Positions 36,201-49,400 of a DNA stretch of 64,000 nucleotides are shown in pieces. The position numbers were made by a program. The stretch comes from Anolis carolinensis. Its lineage: Eukaryota. Within the stretch, counting starts at the first letter, position 1. Each line of letters begins with the position of its first letter. The stretch covers positions 240,146,689-240,210,688 of the forward strand of contig NC_085841.1 in assembly GCF_035594765.1 (NCBI RefSeq). The letters run 5' to 3'.

Positions 36201-39200
36201 CAAAGAAAAGTGATGGAACAACAGTAATACCGGATTTCTTTACGGATTCTTCCCATCAGTGAAAAGAAACAATCTTGATTCAGATACAATGCAACTATGG
36301 GACAACCACAGCAAAATGCAATAAGCCCAATCAAAAGGTGCTATTATCTTCGCATAATTGCACTTAAGCAACTTTGTGTGATAAAGTCCTAGGTTCCCAT
36401 TCATATCCATGCGGGGACATGAGAGAAGCCTCCCACTAGGATGGTAAAACATCAAATATCCGGGTGTCCCCTGGGCAACGTCCTTGCAGACAGTCAATTC
36501 TCTTGCAGCTTCTCAAGTTGCTCCTGACATGAAAAAATCATATCCCATATTTTGCTGCTTGACGTAACATTGACAATCAAGAGGGAAAGGTGGCACAAAC
36601 TAGGGATGACACAGAACACCAGTGAGCAAATGCTCCGGAAGAAGAGTCTTCACTAAAAATTACAACTAGAAATAATTTCTAGAATTTCTAGTGCAACTTC
36701 TGGATCTGGGTATGGATTAGTGTGTAAAATAAATCCAAATAAAAATCAGTGTTAACTGAACTTTTGGGGTCTTCTCCCCCCCCCCCCCTCCCCACCAACA
36801 CATAATTTTGAAGGCATACTGGAAGCTTTGGCGGAACTGGGGGCTGTACATGACCCACAGAGTTCCCAAACTCTTGAATAAAAAACCCAAGATGTGCATT
36901 CCTTCATCACAGACCTAGAGAAAACTGAGAGAAGAGAGGACTATAAAGGAAGGTTCATCTCCTTTCCTCTTCCAGCCCCCAGACGAGGGACAACCTGCAT
37001 GCCATGGCACAAGCATGCAGGTTCCTTATTACTGTGGCTCCTTATTTCCACTTATCAGAGCTTTGACAAGTAGTGCAAAGAGGCATAACAATATTCTAAT
37101 CCATAACCTACTTTGCAAATATCTCTAACCCACTGGGTATAAACAGGGACAGCTCACTCCACATTCTGAATTCCACAGTTTCTTCTGAGACAAGACATTT
37201 TCCATTGTCAGATACAAAACAGAACTAGAAACATTGTTGGTTTGACAACCAAATAGTTCAGTGTGCCTTAGATAGCTAGGAAATTACATAAACAGGAGGG
37301 AGATGGCCTATTTATCAAGTCTACTGAGCGAAGACAAGCACGGGTTCAAGTTACAGCAAGGCAGACTTTGGTTACATACCAGGATTAAACTTTCCAACTG
37401 TAATGAATGACTAGGCAATTGTCAGGGTCCAGGCTGCAGAGCACCAATAACCATGCGCAGAGACCAGAATCTATCTAATATCTTTATTAAAGAAATATAT
37501 AAAGTCAATAAAAACAAGTGAAGAATATAGTTCAGAAGCAGACCTTTCAGGAAAGGCCAAATATAGTCCAGGAAAATAATGTCCAATATAAGATATTAGA
37601 GTTCAAAGTTATAATCCTTTAACCGAAACACACACTTTGCCAAGCAATAGTGTGGGGAGATGACAAGGTCTTTAGTCCATTGAAGCTTGACAACAAGGCT
37701 GGATCAAAGGCTTGGTTCTTGGCTGGATCAAGGACTTGGAACGTGACAACTTGAAGCATGAAACAAGGTCCGTGGCTAAACGTGAAGCAAGGCAAGACTT
37801 GAAACTAGATCCGGGAAGCAGGGAACAAGGAATACGAAGTCCACACACGATCTCTCTCCTCAAGCTGAACAATTGACTCCGCAAGGTTCCCCTTGCGGCA
37901 AAACCCCTATATAGGGTCTTGTTTTCCCGCCAACAGAACACTTTCCCTGGAGAACAAGAAGTGAAACCCAACTCTGTCCAGATGCATGACTTCTTAGAAT
38001 TTCCCAAGGGAAGCAGACCTAATCAGCTAATTGTCTGGCAGCGATTCTGAGGCTCCGGCGATTAGCCTCCCTGACTCCTCTATCTCTATTATAATTGTCC
38101 TTTCGGGAAAACGGGGGAGAATTCTGCCCAAGGCTTGTTTGGTTAACTTCCTGAGGACAAACATCTTCCAGGTGGCGAGGCTCCGATTCGAGCTGAACCG
38201 GTGGAAATCCCATGTTTTCCTCCTCATCTGCCACAATAGCACTAGGAACGGGACTACAAGGCCCATGAGACATCACAGCAATGGAATGAGTGGCCTTAGG
38301 GGGATTGTGGTGTCATGTTCTCTAACAGGATTTCCAGCTCAATATTTTTATTCAGCAGTAAGCTCAAATGAGCATAAACCCACATCAAACATGAACAAGA
38401 TTGTAACATTATGCCAGAGGTTTAGAACCTCTGCCCTCACTGCCAGTGGTTTGGACTACAGCACTCAGTGCTTTATCATTGGCCATGCTGGGTGGGACAA
38501 AAGGGAATTCTAAATAAAAACATATGGGGAGTTCAATATTCCCCATCTCTATTTTAAAGAAGCTTGAAAATGATGGGGAGTGGGTTACAACAAGTCTATC
38601 ATACTTTGCAAATACCTCTAATCCAATGGGTTGGACTAAGCTGGGATAGGCAAAGTGTGACTCTCCAGACTTTTTGGACTGTAGCTCCCAGCAATCCACA
38701 CAACTGACTGATTATTAAGACTCGTGGGAGTTGCAATTCAACAAAAAGGGATAGAGGGATAACATTTCTCCATCCTACATGAGATAAATTTCAAATTCCA
38801 TCAGTTGCATAAAGTGGCCATACTTGGTGTGTACAATCAGTTATGCAAAAACCCAGATTTTTCTGTGTTATACTCACCCTTCTCCGAGCCTATGAATTGA
38901 AAGGTAACGTTTGTTATTGATAGTGATGGTTCCCCTTGAACAGATACATAGGGCATGGCCCATGATGGTCACTCCAACATCCTTCTGGCTCTACAGAGGA
39001 TAAGGTAACACAAAATCATATTTAATCTATTTATTGTTATTAGTATTATTATCATCATCCTGCTATTTCATATGTAAATATCCATGGCAGCCAACAATAT
39101 TAAAATCCCCAAACATGCAAACATAGAAAAATATAATAAATGCAACAAAGAGAGACAAAATGACAGCAGTCAAAATAAAAATAGTATGGGTAAGATTCAG

Positions 39201-46465: not shown

Positions 46466-49400
46466 CATGTCTCCATGCTGTGCAGTCTTGGGAGTAAGAG
46501 TTTTCCAAGGTCCATACCATTCTTTTGGTGCATTTACAATACGGGGTGAATGCCCTTGCACCCCACTTTAAATCCCATGACTCCATGCAATGGAGTCCTC
46601 CTGGGAGTTATAATTTCCCAAAGTCAATGCACTTCTCTGGGTGTATCTACACTGTGCAGCTGGACCTTACTTTAAATGCCATGTCAGCATGAGATGGTCT
46701 TGGGAACTGCAGTTTTCCAAGGTCCGTGAACCTTCTCTGGGTGCATCTACACCATGAACTGACGGCAGCTGGGCCTAAGGCTGTTAGGAATGGTGGGAGT
46801 TGAAGTCCAAAACTCCTGGCGGGAAGGCCCAAGTTTGCCCCAGCCTCTGAGTCTGGGCTCCCAGCACTGCGAAATGCTTGTCTATTTCTGTCTCTCTGGC
46901 GTGGAAAGAGCCAGCACGGCGGAGATGGGGGATTTACAGGGAGTAAGCTGCCGAGCTAACACGACAAAAGCCTCCCATCAACAAACAACCTTTAAGGGCA
47001 TTGAGGGGCGGGGCATTGCCTGGCCCCGCCCCCTCCCGAGAGGCCCCGCCCCTCCCTTATAAGACCAATGCGGCAGGGCAGCGGGCACTAGGCGTTGCTG
47101 CTTCTCATAGAGATATCGTCGCCCGTACTCTGAAGTGAGAGCTTAGCCCCGCCGTTTGCACCATGGTAAGTGAAGGGATCTGAGAAGGAAGGAGGCGGCG
47201 AGATGGCGCCTCTTTCTCAGGAAGGAAGTTTCTACGCGGGGGCTGAATGGCCATCTGTCGGGAGGGCTTCGATTGCGTGGCGGAAGGGACTGCGGGTGGG
47301 TGGCCTGCTCTAACTAGGCTTCTGTGCTCCTTCCTGTTCCCGCCACGAGGGGCCCTTCCATATGTCCCAGAATATCAAGGCAGTGTGGACTCAGATAACC
47401 CCGTTCAAAGCAGATATCGTGGGATTTGATATTCTGGCTGTCTGGAAGGGCCCGAGGTTGTGCCGGGGCGCCTTGCATGGGGCCTTGGGGTTGAATCCGT
47501 GGCCTCGTTTAGCTCTCACGGGATTCTGCCGGGAGTTTGAACCTCCCAGGATCGAAAGCGGCACCTCTTCTGCAGTGTAGACGTGCGCCGCGCGGCCAGT
47601 GCCCTTTTTGCGCCCTCTCCGCCGCCCAGAGCCAGAGAGAAGCTATTAAGAGGCGGAGCAGAGCGGGCTCTCTCTCTCGTTCTCTCTCTCTGCGCCCGCT
47701 TTCCGGCCAAATCCCGGGGCTGGAAATAGCCGGGCTCGGGTCCAAAGGAGGTAATCGCATCTCCCGTCTCATCTCGGGGGAATCTTCGCCCTTCGCCCTA
47801 TATTTAGTGGCTGGAAGGAGGCCGGGGCCGGCTCCCCACTTTTGGTTTTGGCCCACGACGCCATGAAGTTCCCTTTGGGCTGCGTCACTTTCTGAATGCG
47901 CGCCTCGCCGAGGTGTGGGAGGCGGAAGAGAGCCATTTTAAAAAATCGGGGCGGAAAGTCATGCCCTTTTTTCCCTCCAGTTTGGGCTTTCAAAACCCTG
48001 GAAAAGAGGGTGCCCTCTGGATCTGGGGGCCCTTTCAATATAACAGCCATATAACTCGGCATATCGAGGCTGAGAATCCACAATATCTGCTTTGGACTGC
48101 ATTATCTGGGCTGTGGCGCAGGTTGGAAAGTAAGCCAGCTGCAACAAATCACTCTGACCAAGAGGTCATGAGTTCGAGGCCAGCCCGTGCCTGCGTCTTG
48201 TCTCTGTCTCTGTTCGATGTTATGGCATTGAATGTTTGCCTTTATGTGTGCAATGTGATCCGCCCTGAGTCCCCTTCGGGGTGAGAAGGGCGGAATATAA
48301 ATGCTGTAAATAAATAAATAAATAAATAAATACAGTAGAGTCTCACTTATCCAACATAAACGGGCTGGCAGAATGTTGGATAATAAGGAGGGATTAAGTA
48401 AAAGCCTATTAAACATCAAATTAGGTTATGATTTTACACCAAAACATCATGTTATACAACAAATTGGACAGAAAAAGCAGTTCAATATGCAGTAATGTTA
48501 TGTTGTAATTACTGTATTTACGAATTTAGCACCAAAATATCATGATGTATTAAAAACATTGACTACAAAAATGCGTTGGATAATCCAGAATGTTGGATAA
48601 GCGAGTGTTGGATAAGTGAGACTCTACTGTAAATAAATTATCTGAGTCCACACTGCCATATAATCCAGTTCAATGTGGGTTTTATGCAGCTGTGGAAGGG
48701 GCCTTCGTGCCCTTCCACACAGCCATATAACCCAGAATATCGAGGCTGAGAATCCACAATATCTGCTCTGGAATGGATTATCTGAGTCCAATTGTTCATC
48801 CCAGGCCCCTTCCTTCCATCATCTGCTATATAATCCAGTTCAATGTGGATTTTATACAGCTGTGTGGAAGGAAGGGGCCTGGGATGAACAATTGCGCTTT
48901 GACTTCTCTTATGAATGGCACCATCTCTTATCCAACCTGTCGGTAGGCTGTTAGGAATTGTGGGAATTGAAGTCCAAAACACCTGGAGGGCCCAAGTTTG
49001 CCCATGCCTGATGTAGTAGGACAGGCATGGGCAAACACCGGCCCTCCAAGGCTGAGGAGGGAAAGGAAGGGGCCTGAAGCTGTTAGGAACTGAGAGAGTT
49101 AAAAGTCCAAAACACCTAAAGGGCCCAAGTTGCCTCATGCCTGTAGTAGGAGCACTTCCATGTTGAGCCCCAGCAAGGAAGCCAAAGGGCAGCTTCCTTC
49201 CCGCTTTTATGGAGTCCATAGCCTAAGGGAGGAGCTTAGGCCTGCAGCTATAATTAGGGGGCATCTACCCGTGACTCCCAAACTCGGCCCTCCCAGGTAT
49301 TTTGATTTAAACTCCCCGAAACTTCACAAATGCCTCAGTCAATCCTCTGGAATTCTGAGAAGTCCAAAGTGCCTGGCTGACCAGAGTTTGGAAAACAAAT

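What the first reader, a model, noticed from the sequence alone, without database searches (positions are those of the whole stretch)
38878..47165. First STK16 copy looks decapitated and now sits head-to-head with the second TUBA4A promoter
Seen: the ATG-bearing exon starts after a splice acceptor (tcctctgtag|AGCCAG, exon start 38990), so an upstream non-coding exon is required. The 5.1 kb up to the junction is AT-rich and full of repeats, with no CpG island. The next CpG island upstream on this strand is the TUBA4A copy-2 promoter at about 47.0-48.0 kb. Inference: this full-CDS STK16 copy is either silent or driven by divergent transcription from a tubulin promoter, a new regulatory pairing created by the duplication. 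Consensus minus-strand donors (AG|GTAAGT) at about 41559 and 43736 could supply a new first intron.
Basis: partly seen in the sequence, partly recalled or inferred. Interest (0 to 1): 0.72.

Follow-up and report, generated by a model that had tools for sequence, protein, structure and literature searches.

The report
Promoter-less STK16 copy in lizard duplication
A young 29.5-kb tandem duplication in a lizard genome copies the tubulin gene TUBA4A and the kinase gene STK16, and the inner STK16 copy probably lost its own promoter, an ordinary by-product of such duplications whose expression cannot be judged from sequence alone.

Summary
The sequence facts hold. The window is from an Anolis-like lizard, not human. 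It contains a direct tandem duplication with a 29,526-bp period. Unit 1 is 14574-44099. Unit 2 starts at 44100 and runs off the window. The copies differ by 0.39% plus 20 indels.

STK16 copy 1 (minus strand) has seven GT-AG coding exons totalling 305 codons. Its ATG exon starts at a good acceptor at 38990. A Pogona STK16 model splices an upstream exon at about the same place.

The 5.1 kb retained upstream has 40.6% GC and background CpG content, with no CpG island. At least 41% is repeat, and no protein-family match stands up.

The next CpG island, 46801-48300, holds TUBA4A copy-2 exon 1, with its ATG at 47163-47165.

Loss of the native first exon is the likeliest reading but is unproven. The region that would settle it lies beyond the window, and no lizard genome collection was available. 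The two consensus donors occur at chance frequency. Capture by the tubulin promoter is speculation. Interest is low to moderate.

The parts
14574..44099 (.). Tandem duplication unit 1 (29,526 bp): TUBA4A copy 1, STK16 copy 1 and 5.1 kb upstream of STK16
   Evidence: Self-BLAST blocks 14574-19407=44100-48940, 19532-27375=48931-56768, 27796-34121=56954-63275 and 34773-35502=63275-64000. The MAFFT alignment has 78 mismatches in 19,803 aligned columns and 20 indels.
44100..64000 (.). Tandem duplication unit 2, cut by the window end at the position equivalent to 35502
44099..44100 (.). Duplication junction (unit-1 end joined to unit-2 start), blunt as far as can be seen, with no N
   Evidence: (no N)
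38878..38990 (-). STK16 copy 1 exon carrying 27 nt of 5'UTR and the ATG (38963-38961). It has the acceptor ...tcctctgtag| and the donor AGG|GTGAGT. A 3-codon uORF, ATG TTG GAG TGA, starts at 38980.
35587..35806 (-). STK16 copy 1 coding exon 2 (220 nt)
   Evidence: Pfam Pkinase 21.8 bits, below the cut-off because this is an exon fragment. 86-90% identity to squamate STK16. Splice sites.
33633..33766 (-). STK16 copy 1 coding exon 3 (134 nt)
33223..33343 (-). STK16 copy 1 coding exon 4 (121 nt)
30662..30757 (-). STK16 copy 1 coding exon 5 (96 nt)
30385..30506 (-). STK16 copy 1 coding exon 6 (122 nt)
30163..30301 (-). STK16 copy 1 last coding exon (136 nt plus TGA stop)
59317..62920 (-). STK16 copy 2 coding exons 3-7 (62787-62920, 62377-62497, 59816-59911, 59539-59660, 59317-59455). 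They are identical base for base to copy 1. Exons 1-2 lie beyond the window.
38991..44099 (-). Retained upstream region of STK16 copy 1, with no CpG island, no supported protein-family match and at least 41% repeats
39428..39756 (.). MITE-like element with 18-nt terminal inverted repeats. It holds most of the local CpG cluster of 39601-39800.
41038..41461 (.). Element bounded by 26-nt terminal inverted repeats (96% complementary)
41716..41855 (.). Palindromic short repeat (57-nt arms) with up to 8 other copies in the window
42516..43259 (-). Interspersed repeat with 72%-identical copies at 32335-33093 and 61489-62247. The label 'LINE (CR1-like) 3' end' is recalled from memory and was not tested.
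43333..43969 (+). SINE-like repeat (43333-43634, copies at 14750, 15196, 44276, 44722) followed by a retrotransposon ORF fragment. The region holds the CpG cluster 43801-44000 and, on the minus strand, the donor-like AAG|GTAAGT at 43736.
   Evidence: For ORF 43484-43969, 138 of 187 candidate proteins had E<=1e-5. The best are uncharacterised Anolis proteins at 67-76% identity, and two coelacanth 'reverse transcriptase domain-containing' proteins also appear.
41554..41561 (-). Donor-like TAG|GTAAGT in AT-rich sequence that has no other copy in the window
46801..48300 (.). CpG island of TUBA4A copy 2 (GC 0.573, o/e 0.70, 86 CpG)
47000..47165 (+). TUBA4A copy 2 core promoter (GGGGCGGGG-type boxes, ttataag, ccaat) and exon 1 ending ATG|gtaagt, with the ATG at 47163-47165
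17637..27256 (+). TUBA4A copy 1: ATG 17637-17639, exon 2 24053-24275, exon 3 24777-24925, exon 4 26285-27256 (TAA). Total 448 codons. The C-terminus is ...[11 protein letters not shown].
   Evidence: Pfam Tubulin and Tubulin_C
53447..56649 (+). TUBA4A copy 2 exons 2-4 (53447-53669, 54170-54318, 55678-56649)

Best explanation
This is a recent direct tandem duplication of 29.5 kb in an iguanian (Anolis-like) lizard. The left breakpoint lies 3.1 kb upstream of the TUBA4A start codon. The right breakpoint lies 5.1 kb upstream of the ATG-bearing exon of the convergently oriented STK16.

The whole TUBA4A gene with its CpG-island promoter was duplicated, so both tubulin copies are self-sufficient. 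For STK16, the unit carries all seven coding exons but, most probably, not the native non-coding first exon and promoter. These would lie beyond the right breakpoint and stay attached only to the distal copy (copy 2, off the window).

On this reading the inner copy 1 is a 5'-truncated duplicate with an intact coding sequence. It is likely silent, or expressed only at low level from cryptic starts: a transposon-derived start, or upstream-antisense transcription of the TUBA4A copy-2 promoter.

Shown: the duplication, the junction, the gene models, and the absence of a CpG island in the retained 5.1 kb. Inferred: that the acceptor at 38990 is used, that the native exon 1 lies outside, and the expression state.
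For: Duplication. There are four collinear blocks at 98.6-99.5% identity, with 78 mismatches in 19,803 columns (0.39%) and 20 indels, including 652, 293, 134 and 67 bp. The junction is contiguous, with no N in the window.

Taxon. The best hits of the STK16 exon are Phrynosoma and Pogona STK16 at 90%. The best repeat-ORF hits are Anolis proteins.

Full coding sequence. Exon-by-exon tblastn covers residues 1-305 of Zootoca STK16. All splice sites are GT-AG, and the exon lengths sum to 915 nt.

Internal-exon status. The acceptor has a pyrimidine-rich tract. Pogona isoform X1 begins MHGCLKDVGGTIMGHAL, and KDVGGTIMG aligns to the 5'UTR part of this exon, so that gene model splices an upstream exon at about this point.

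No promoter signature in 38991-44099. CpG o/e is 0.24, equal to background, and no island is present. The TUBA4A promoter in the same window is a clear island, with o/e up to 0.9. The only two 200-bp CpG clusters lie largely or wholly in repeats: 39601-39800 mostly inside a MITE-like element (39428-39756), and 43801-44000 mostly inside a retrotransposon ORF fragment ending at 43969. Among 120 ORFs of at least 28 aa tested in or overlapping the region (50, 70), none gave a supported Pfam match. One sub-threshold chance match to Toxin_14 (E 0.0059, 17 bits against a cut-off of 25) fell inside a repeat. No ANKZF1 exon was detected.
Against: The native exon 1 was never located, so 'outside the unit' rests only on the absence of a signature.

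About 59% of the 5.1 kb is not demonstrably repeat. This includes a 1.28-kb block, 39757-41040, that could hide a CpG-poor promoter and a short non-coding exon. A donor-like CTG|GTGAGG lies there at 40637.

The other STK16 introns here are 0.08-3.1 kb, so a first intron longer than 5.1 kb would be the longest in the gene.

Copy 1 shows no disabling mutation, and exons 3-7 are identical in both copies. At 0.39% divergence only about 2.5 differences would be expected there, so this says little either way.

Use of the acceptor rests on one predicted gene model from another lizard family. Only 1 of the 120 listed proteins has such an N-terminal extension.
Confidence: 0.45

Rival explanations
1. 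Complete duplicate. The native STK16 first exon and a CpG-poor promoter lie inside the retained 5.1 kb, so copy 1 is a fully equipped second STK16 gene and nothing was decapitated.
For: 3,010 of 5,109 bp are not demonstrably repeat, including 39757-41040. Donor-like sites exist at 40637 (score 9.8), 41560 (10.6) and 39554 (8.1), within the range of the six real STK16 donors, 4.2-11.3. The known STK16 introns here are at most 3.1 kb. The coding sequence of copy 1 is intact.
Against: No CpG enrichment occurs anywhere outside repeats. The 200-bp windows between 39801 and 41000 hold 0-2 CpG each. The other broadly expressed gene in the window has a strong island. The donor scores use a position matrix recalled from memory and are only a heuristic. 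AGGTAAGT occurs at chance level.
Confidence: 0.25
2. Promoter capture. Copy 1 lost its own promoter but is transcribed from the TUBA4A copy-2 CpG island in the antisense direction. A cryptic donor splices to the acceptor at 38990, coupling STK16 expression to a tubulin promoter.
For: The orientation is divergent, and only 8.2 kb separate the tubulin ATG from the STK16 acceptor. On the minus strand a moderate donor, AAA|GTAAGG at 46671 (score 7.8), lies about 0.3-0.4 kb from the core promoter and precedes the first AATAAA at 46425. A stronger donor, GAG|GTGAGA (10.2), lies at 44225. Divergent transcription from CpG-island promoters is a known source of new transcripts. For this I saw only the titles of Wu & Sharp 2013 and Almada et al. 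2013 in the reference list of PMC4085477.
Against: 17 AATAAA/ATTAAA hexamers lie on the minus strand between the promoter and the acceptor. The U1/poly(A)-signal rule named in the title of Almada et al. 2013 predicts early termination of such transcripts. The same donors sit upstream of TUBA4A copy 1, where no minus-strand gene was found in 1-14573. No expression data exist.
Confidence: 0.1
3. Assembly artefact. The two units are the two haplotypes of a single-copy locus, wrongly laid in tandem.
For: Divergence is only 0.39%, with a transition:transversion ratio of 54:24 and several indels. This is within the range of heterozygosity in many vertebrates (the heterozygosity range is recalled). 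The STK16 exons are identical between copies.
Against: The junction is a novel adjacency assembled without any N. Haplotype duplications usually sit at contig ends or gaps (general knowledge). The unit-1 end and the left flank share no similarity that could mislead an assembler.
Confidence: 0.12

Closest known systems
Partial (5'-truncated) gene duplicates produced by tandem segmental duplication
   Same: The unit is direct and head-to-tail, with breakpoints unrelated to gene boundaries. One gene (TUBA4A) is copied whole. The gene at the unit's edge (STK16) keeps its coding exons but probably not its promoter. The copies are young, at 0.39% divergence.
   Different: The truncation would remove only a non-coding first exon, leaving a complete 305-codon reading frame. 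Whether truncation occurred at all is unproven.
Head-to-head gene pairs with bidirectional CpG-island promoters, and divergent transcription as a source of new transcripts
   Same: STK16 copy 1 and TUBA4A copy 2 are divergently oriented, with one CpG island between them.
   Different: Classical bidirectional pairs have starts less than about 1 kb apart (recalled). Here the nearest known STK16 exon is 8.2 kb away, with 17 poly(A) hexamers in between. No antisense first exon is known.
STK16-TUBA4A neighbourhood of other vertebrates
   Same: STK16 and TUBA4A lie tail to tail, as I recall for the human 2q35 locus. The STK16 exons are 76-98% identical to squamate orthologues.
   Different: The pair is present twice here. 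In bird gene models ANKZF1 is fused upstream of STK16 (P0059, P0070, P0071), but no ANKZF1 exon is detectable in this window.

Membership tests
STK16 (serine/threonine kinase 16) orthologue | Protein kinase domain | tested here: met
   Pfam Pkinase matches two exons (E 1.4e-4 and 3.9e-4). Both are below the whole-protein cut-off because only exon fragments were scanned. Exon-wise tblastn covers the whole kinase of Pogona and Zootoca STK16.
STK16 (serine/threonine kinase 16) orthologue | Closest relatives are annotated STK16, over the full 305-residue length | tested here: met
   The best listed hits are annotated STK16 from squamates, birds, turtles and amphibians. Among the top ten, P0001 (Phrynosoma, 90%) is named only 'hypothetical protein' and P0003 is unnamed. 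The seven exons sum to 915 nt with GT-AG sites. The exons were not joined.
STK16 (serine/threonine kinase 16) orthologue | N-terminal MG..C.C acylation motif (recalled from the STK16 literature) | tested here: met
   MGHALCICS is encoded at 38963 onward. The motif's role is recalled and was not tested.
TUBA4A-type alpha-tubulin | Tubulin GTPase and C-terminal domains, with a first exon that ends at the ATG | tested here: met
   Pfam Tubulin (up to 87.9 bits) and Tubulin_C (179.7 bits), both above cut-off. Exon 1 reads caccATG|gtaagt. Total 448 codons.
TUBA4A-type alpha-tubulin | Encoded C-terminus lacks the final tyrosine (recalled as the TUBA4A hallmark) | tested here: met
   The protein ends ...[11 protein letters not shown]. 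No search by name was run on the tubulin exons, so the paralogue assignment rests on this feature and on the neighbourhood with STK16.
Tandem segmental duplication | Two collinear, same-orientation, adjacent copies with a definable junction | tested here: met
Tandem segmental duplication | Presence in the organism rather than only in the assembly | not testable with these tools
   No reads or depth data were available. The only indirect evidence is the absence of N and the novel adjacency.
5'-truncated (decapitated) gene duplicate | The native first exon and promoter lie outside the duplicated unit | tested here: inconclusive
   No CpG island or coding neighbour lies in 38991-44099. The native exon 1 could not be located: copy 2's upstream region is off the window and no lizard genome was available for comparison.
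Bidirectional-promoter gene pair | Two opposite-strand transcription starts within about 1 kb in one CpG island | tested here: not met
   The distance from the tubulin ATG (47163) to the first known STK16 exon (38990) is 8.2 kb, and no antisense exon was identified.
CpG island (GC>=0.5, o/e>=0.6, at least 200 bp) | Criteria met anywhere in 38991-44099 | tested here: not met
   500-bp windows at 100-bp steps give only 17301-18800 and 46801-48300.

The most novel reading that the evidence does not exclude
The duplication created a new transcription unit. Upstream-antisense transcription from the TUBA4A copy-2 CpG island uses a cryptic donor (for example 46671 or 44225) and the intact acceptor at 38990. 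It yields a full-length STK16 mRNA whose expression follows the tubulin promoter. This would be a very young, datable case of promoter capture by a decapitated but coding-intact duplicate.
Probability: 0.1. Interest if true: 0.5.

Novelty: new member of a known kind. Interest (0 to 1): 0.25.

Why it matters
If the inner STK16 copy really lost its promoter, this locus is a very young example (0.39% divergence) of how tandem duplication yields a coding-intact gene copy with no regulatory region. It would show the copy's first step towards decay or towards a borrowed promoter. The two nearly identical TUBA4A copies would also raise tubulin gene dosage in this lizard. As it stands this is an ordinary structural variant, and its regulatory consequence is untested.

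Tried and rejected
(1) Recombination between repeats at the two breakpoints. The first kilobase of the units has only 3 mismatches, no more than elsewhere. The sequences left of 14574 and left of 44100 are unrelated. There is no sign of a chimeric repeat, though the partner breakpoint beyond unit 2 is unseen.

(2) CpG clusters at 39601-39800 and 43801-44000 as promoter remnants. 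Both were rejected. The first lies mostly within a MITE-like element with 18-nt inverted ends. The second lies mostly within a retrotransposon ORF fragment that has copies at 20670-20789 and 50067-50186 and many Anolis protein hits.

(3) A Pogona-like upstream coding exon (MHGC...). The degenerate pattern gave 6 matches in the window against 8.9 expected, none of them in 38991-47165.

(4) A neighbouring gene's exons in the 5.1 kb or in the left flank. Pfam scans of stop-to-stop ORFs covered 145, 140, 140 and 70 ORFs. They gave only the kinase and tubulin exons, plus two sub-threshold chance matches: a plant cysteine-rich domain at 9662-9943 and Toxin_14 at 43505-43630. The last 42 of the 467 ORFs of at least 45 aa listed (44166-47426) were not scanned. 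tblastn with three bird ANKZF1-STK16 fusion models found no ANKZF1 exon, only weak hits with E of at least 0.1.

(5) Rfam at gathering thresholds gave 0 matches in the window.

(6) Literature on an STK16/GLB1L bidirectional promoter. 52 papers hold at least 2 of the 3 terms, and none of the 15 listed was relevant by title.

(7) Relaxed constraint as a sign of silencing of copy 1. Exons 3-7 are identical in both copies, so the test has no power.

Full report
**What the window is.** The 64-kb window has no N and 43.0% GC. The STK16 exon at 35563-35811 finds annotated STK16 proteins. The best are the iguanian lizards Phrynosoma platyrhinos and Pogona vitticeps at 90% identity, followed by other squamates, birds, turtles and amphibians. 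A repeat-borne ORF at 43484-43969 finds its best matches in Anolis sagrei and A. carolinensis. I therefore take the contig to be from an Anolis-like lizard, not from human, and treated it as such. Spliced gene models were examined exon by exon.

**The duplication.**
- Self-BLAST gives four collinear same-strand blocks: 14574-19407=44100-48940, 19532-27375=48931-56768, 27796-34121=56954-63275 and 34773-35502=63275-64000. This is a direct tandem duplication with a 29,526-bp period. Unit 1 is 14574-44099. Unit 2 begins at 44100 and is cut by the window end.
- A MAFFT alignment of the shared parts has 78 mismatches in 19,803 ungapped columns (0.39%; 54 transitions, 24 transversions). It has 20 indels, among them 652, 293 and 134 bp present only in unit 1 and 67 bp present only in unit 2.
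- Homology starts exactly at 14574/44100 (atagggggccctaccac...). The bases to the left of each point are unrelated.
- Mismatches are not denser at the start of the unit, with 3 in the first kilobase. Nothing suggests recombination between two copies of a repeat.
- The junction is contiguous sequence. At 0.39% divergence, a haplotype mis-assembly cannot be excluded.

**Genes in the unit: TUBA4A (plus strand).**
- Pfam finds Tubulin and Tubulin_C in three ORFs.
- The exons are: ATG only at 17637-17639, then 24053-24275, 24777-24925 and 26285-27256. All have AG/GT flanks, and the total is 448 codons.
- The protein ends ...[11 protein letters not shown] without a final tyrosine. I recall this as the TUBA4A hallmark.
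- In copy 2, exon 1 reads ...caccATG|gtaagt with the ATG at 47163-47165. It is preceded by GGGGCGGGG-type boxes, ttataag and ccaat at 47000-47070.
- The only two CpG islands in the window, 17301-18800 and 46801-48300, are these two promoters with the start of intron 1.

**Genes in the unit: STK16 copy 1 (minus strand).**
- It has seven coding exons: 38990/38963..38878, 35806..35587, 33766..33633, 33343..33223, 30757..30662, 30506..30385 and 30301..30166 plus TGA. All are GT-AG, and the coding lengths sum to 915 nt, or 305 codons.
- Exon-wise tblastn with Zootoca and Pogona STK16 covers every residue.
- Copy 2 shows exons 3-7 within the window, identical base for base to copy 1. Its first two coding exons lie beyond 64000.

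**The observation.**
- The ATG exon begins right after tcctctgtag| at 38990.
- The 5,109 bp up to the junction have 40.6% GC, CpG o/e 0.24 (window 0.26) and no CpG island.
- The next island on the way upstream is the TUBA4A copy-2 promoter.
- AGGTAAGT occurs on the minus strand at 41554-41561 and 43730-43737.
- 'Full of repeats' can be shown for at least 2,099 bp (41%). This comprises a MITE-like element at 39428-39756 with 18-nt inverted ends, an element at 41038-41461 with 26-nt inverted ends and a palindromic short repeat at 41716-41855, and a 744-bp repeat at 42516-43259 with copies in the STK16 introns. It also includes a SINE-like repeat at 43333-43634 and a repeat segment at 43783-43902.
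- The ORF across 43484-43969 matches 138 proteins at E<=1e-5 out of 187 candidates. Most are uncharacterised proteins of Anolis and other vertebrates, and two are coelacanth reverse-transcriptase-domain proteins. It is therefore a retrotransposon fragment.

**Is the ATG exon an internal exon?** Three points say yes.
- The acceptor has a good pyrimidine tract.
- The sequence just upstream is very AT-rich and carries several ATGs, which is unlike a 5'UTR.
- Pogona STK16 isoform X1 starts MHGCLKDVGGTIMGHAL, and KDVGGTIMG aligns to the translated 5'UTR part of this very exon. That gene model therefore joins an upstream exon at about this point.

This rests on one predicted model. It is the only one of the 120 listed proteins with such an extension.

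**Is the native first exon inside or outside the unit?** This could not be settled. Points for 'outside':
- There is no CpG enrichment outside repeats anywhere in 38991-44099. The two 200-bp CpG clusters both lie largely or wholly in repeats.
- The tubulin promoter shows that this genome does have strong islands.
- No supported protein-family match was found among ORFs of at least 28 aa in the region. No ANKZF1 exon was found either. So there is no sign of the neighbour that would mark the far side of the STK16 promoter.

Points for 'inside':
- 59% of the region is not demonstrably repeat, including 39757-41040.
- Donor-like sites exist there.
- A first intron longer than 5.1 kb would be the longest in this gene.

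I put 'outside', meaning decapitated, at a little over one half in total. That figure combines the best explanation and the promoter-capture rival.

**The proposed tubulin-promoter drive.**
- The geometry is as described. The promoters are divergent, the tubulin ATG and the STK16 acceptor are 8.2 kb apart, and the junction is 3.1 kb from the tubulin ATG.
- On the minus strand the first moderate donor is AAA|GTAAGG at 46671 (score 7.8). It precedes the first AATAAA at 46425. The strongest candidates are at 44225, 43736, 41560 and 40637. The scores use a matrix recalled from memory. It was calibrated only on the six real STK16 donors, which score 4.2-11.3.
- Against the idea, 17 poly(A) hexamers lie in the path.
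- The two perfect AGGTAAGT sites are exactly what chance predicts: 1.99 expected, and 59 of 100 shuffles had at least 2. One lies in the retrotransposon fragment.
- The principle that U1 sites and poly(A) signals set promoter directionality, and the idea that divergent transcription can seed new genes, are known to me. Here I saw only the titles of Almada et al. 2013 and Wu & Sharp 2013 in the reference list of PMC4085477.
- Promoter capture is possible but unsupported.

**What stayed unchecked.**
- The sequence beyond the window was not available.
- No orthologous lizard locus could be fetched. The only open genome collection holds bacteria and archaea and was not scanned.
- No read support for the junction and no expression data were available.
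- The tubulin exons were not sent to a name-giving search, so the TUBA4A paralogue assignment rests on the C-terminus and the neighbourhood.

**Verdict.** This is a real-looking, young tandem duplication of the TUBA4A-STK16 pair in a lizard. The inner STK16 copy is coding-intact and most likely lacks its own promoter. It is a new instance of a well-known kind of event, and its regulatory outcome is open.

Noticed in passing
24068/53462 and 24229/53623: The two TUBA4A copies differ at 4 coding positions, and 2 change the protein at conserved alpha-tubulin residues. Residue 7 is V in copy 1 and I in copy 2. Residue 60 is K in copy 1 and N in copy 2. Each copy thus carries one unusual residue. 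That I7 and K60 are the usual residues is recalled.
   Followed up: partly
38900-38898 (minus strand, codon 22 of STK16 copy 1): STK16 copy 1 encodes S at residue 22 (RYLSIHRLGEG). All 12 squamate STK16 sequences that include this exon have L, and tuatara has F. Copy 2's exon is off the window, so it is unknown whether this is copy-specific.
   Followed up: partly
34122-34773: A 652-bp segment in the STK16 intron of copy 1 is absent from copy 2. It contains a tRNA-like SINE head (...ggttcgaatcc...). Rfam and its tRNA models did not report it at gathering thresholds.
   Followed up: partly
47550-47960 (and the equivalent 18024-18434): A second CpG-dense block lies inside TUBA4A intron 1. It has a TATA-like ctattaagagg and a downstream ...aaggag|gtaatc, and could be an alternative first exon or promoter.
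   Followed up: no
46091-46379 (and 16552-17226 in unit 1): A 109-bp tandem repeat (2.6 copies, 92% matches) and a (TTA)n run at 46421-46464 lie just upstream of the TUBA4A promoter.
   Followed up: no
38980-38969 (minus strand): A three-codon upstream ORF (ATG TTG GAG TGA) lies in the 27-nt 5'UTR part of the STK16 ATG exon.
   Followed up: no
Proteins P0059, P0070, P0071 (bird gene models), not in the window: Several bird annotations fuse ANKZF1 to STK16 from the GFSYVDL exon onward, skipping the STK16 ATG exon. This implies that ANKZF1 lies directly upstream on the same strand in birds. No ANKZF1 exon is in this window.
   Followed up: partly
32340-33026 (+) and 42516-43259 (-): A 229-aa open frame with no Pfam match lies in a repeat inside an STK16 intron. 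It has a 72%-identical inverted copy in the upstream region of STK16 copy 1.
   Followed up: no
1-14573: The left flank of the duplication has no supported protein-family match among 140 ORFs of at least 45 aa. It carries several copies of a roughly 330-bp repeat (2438-2766, 7170-7494, 10201-10528, 13283-13510).
   Followed up: no
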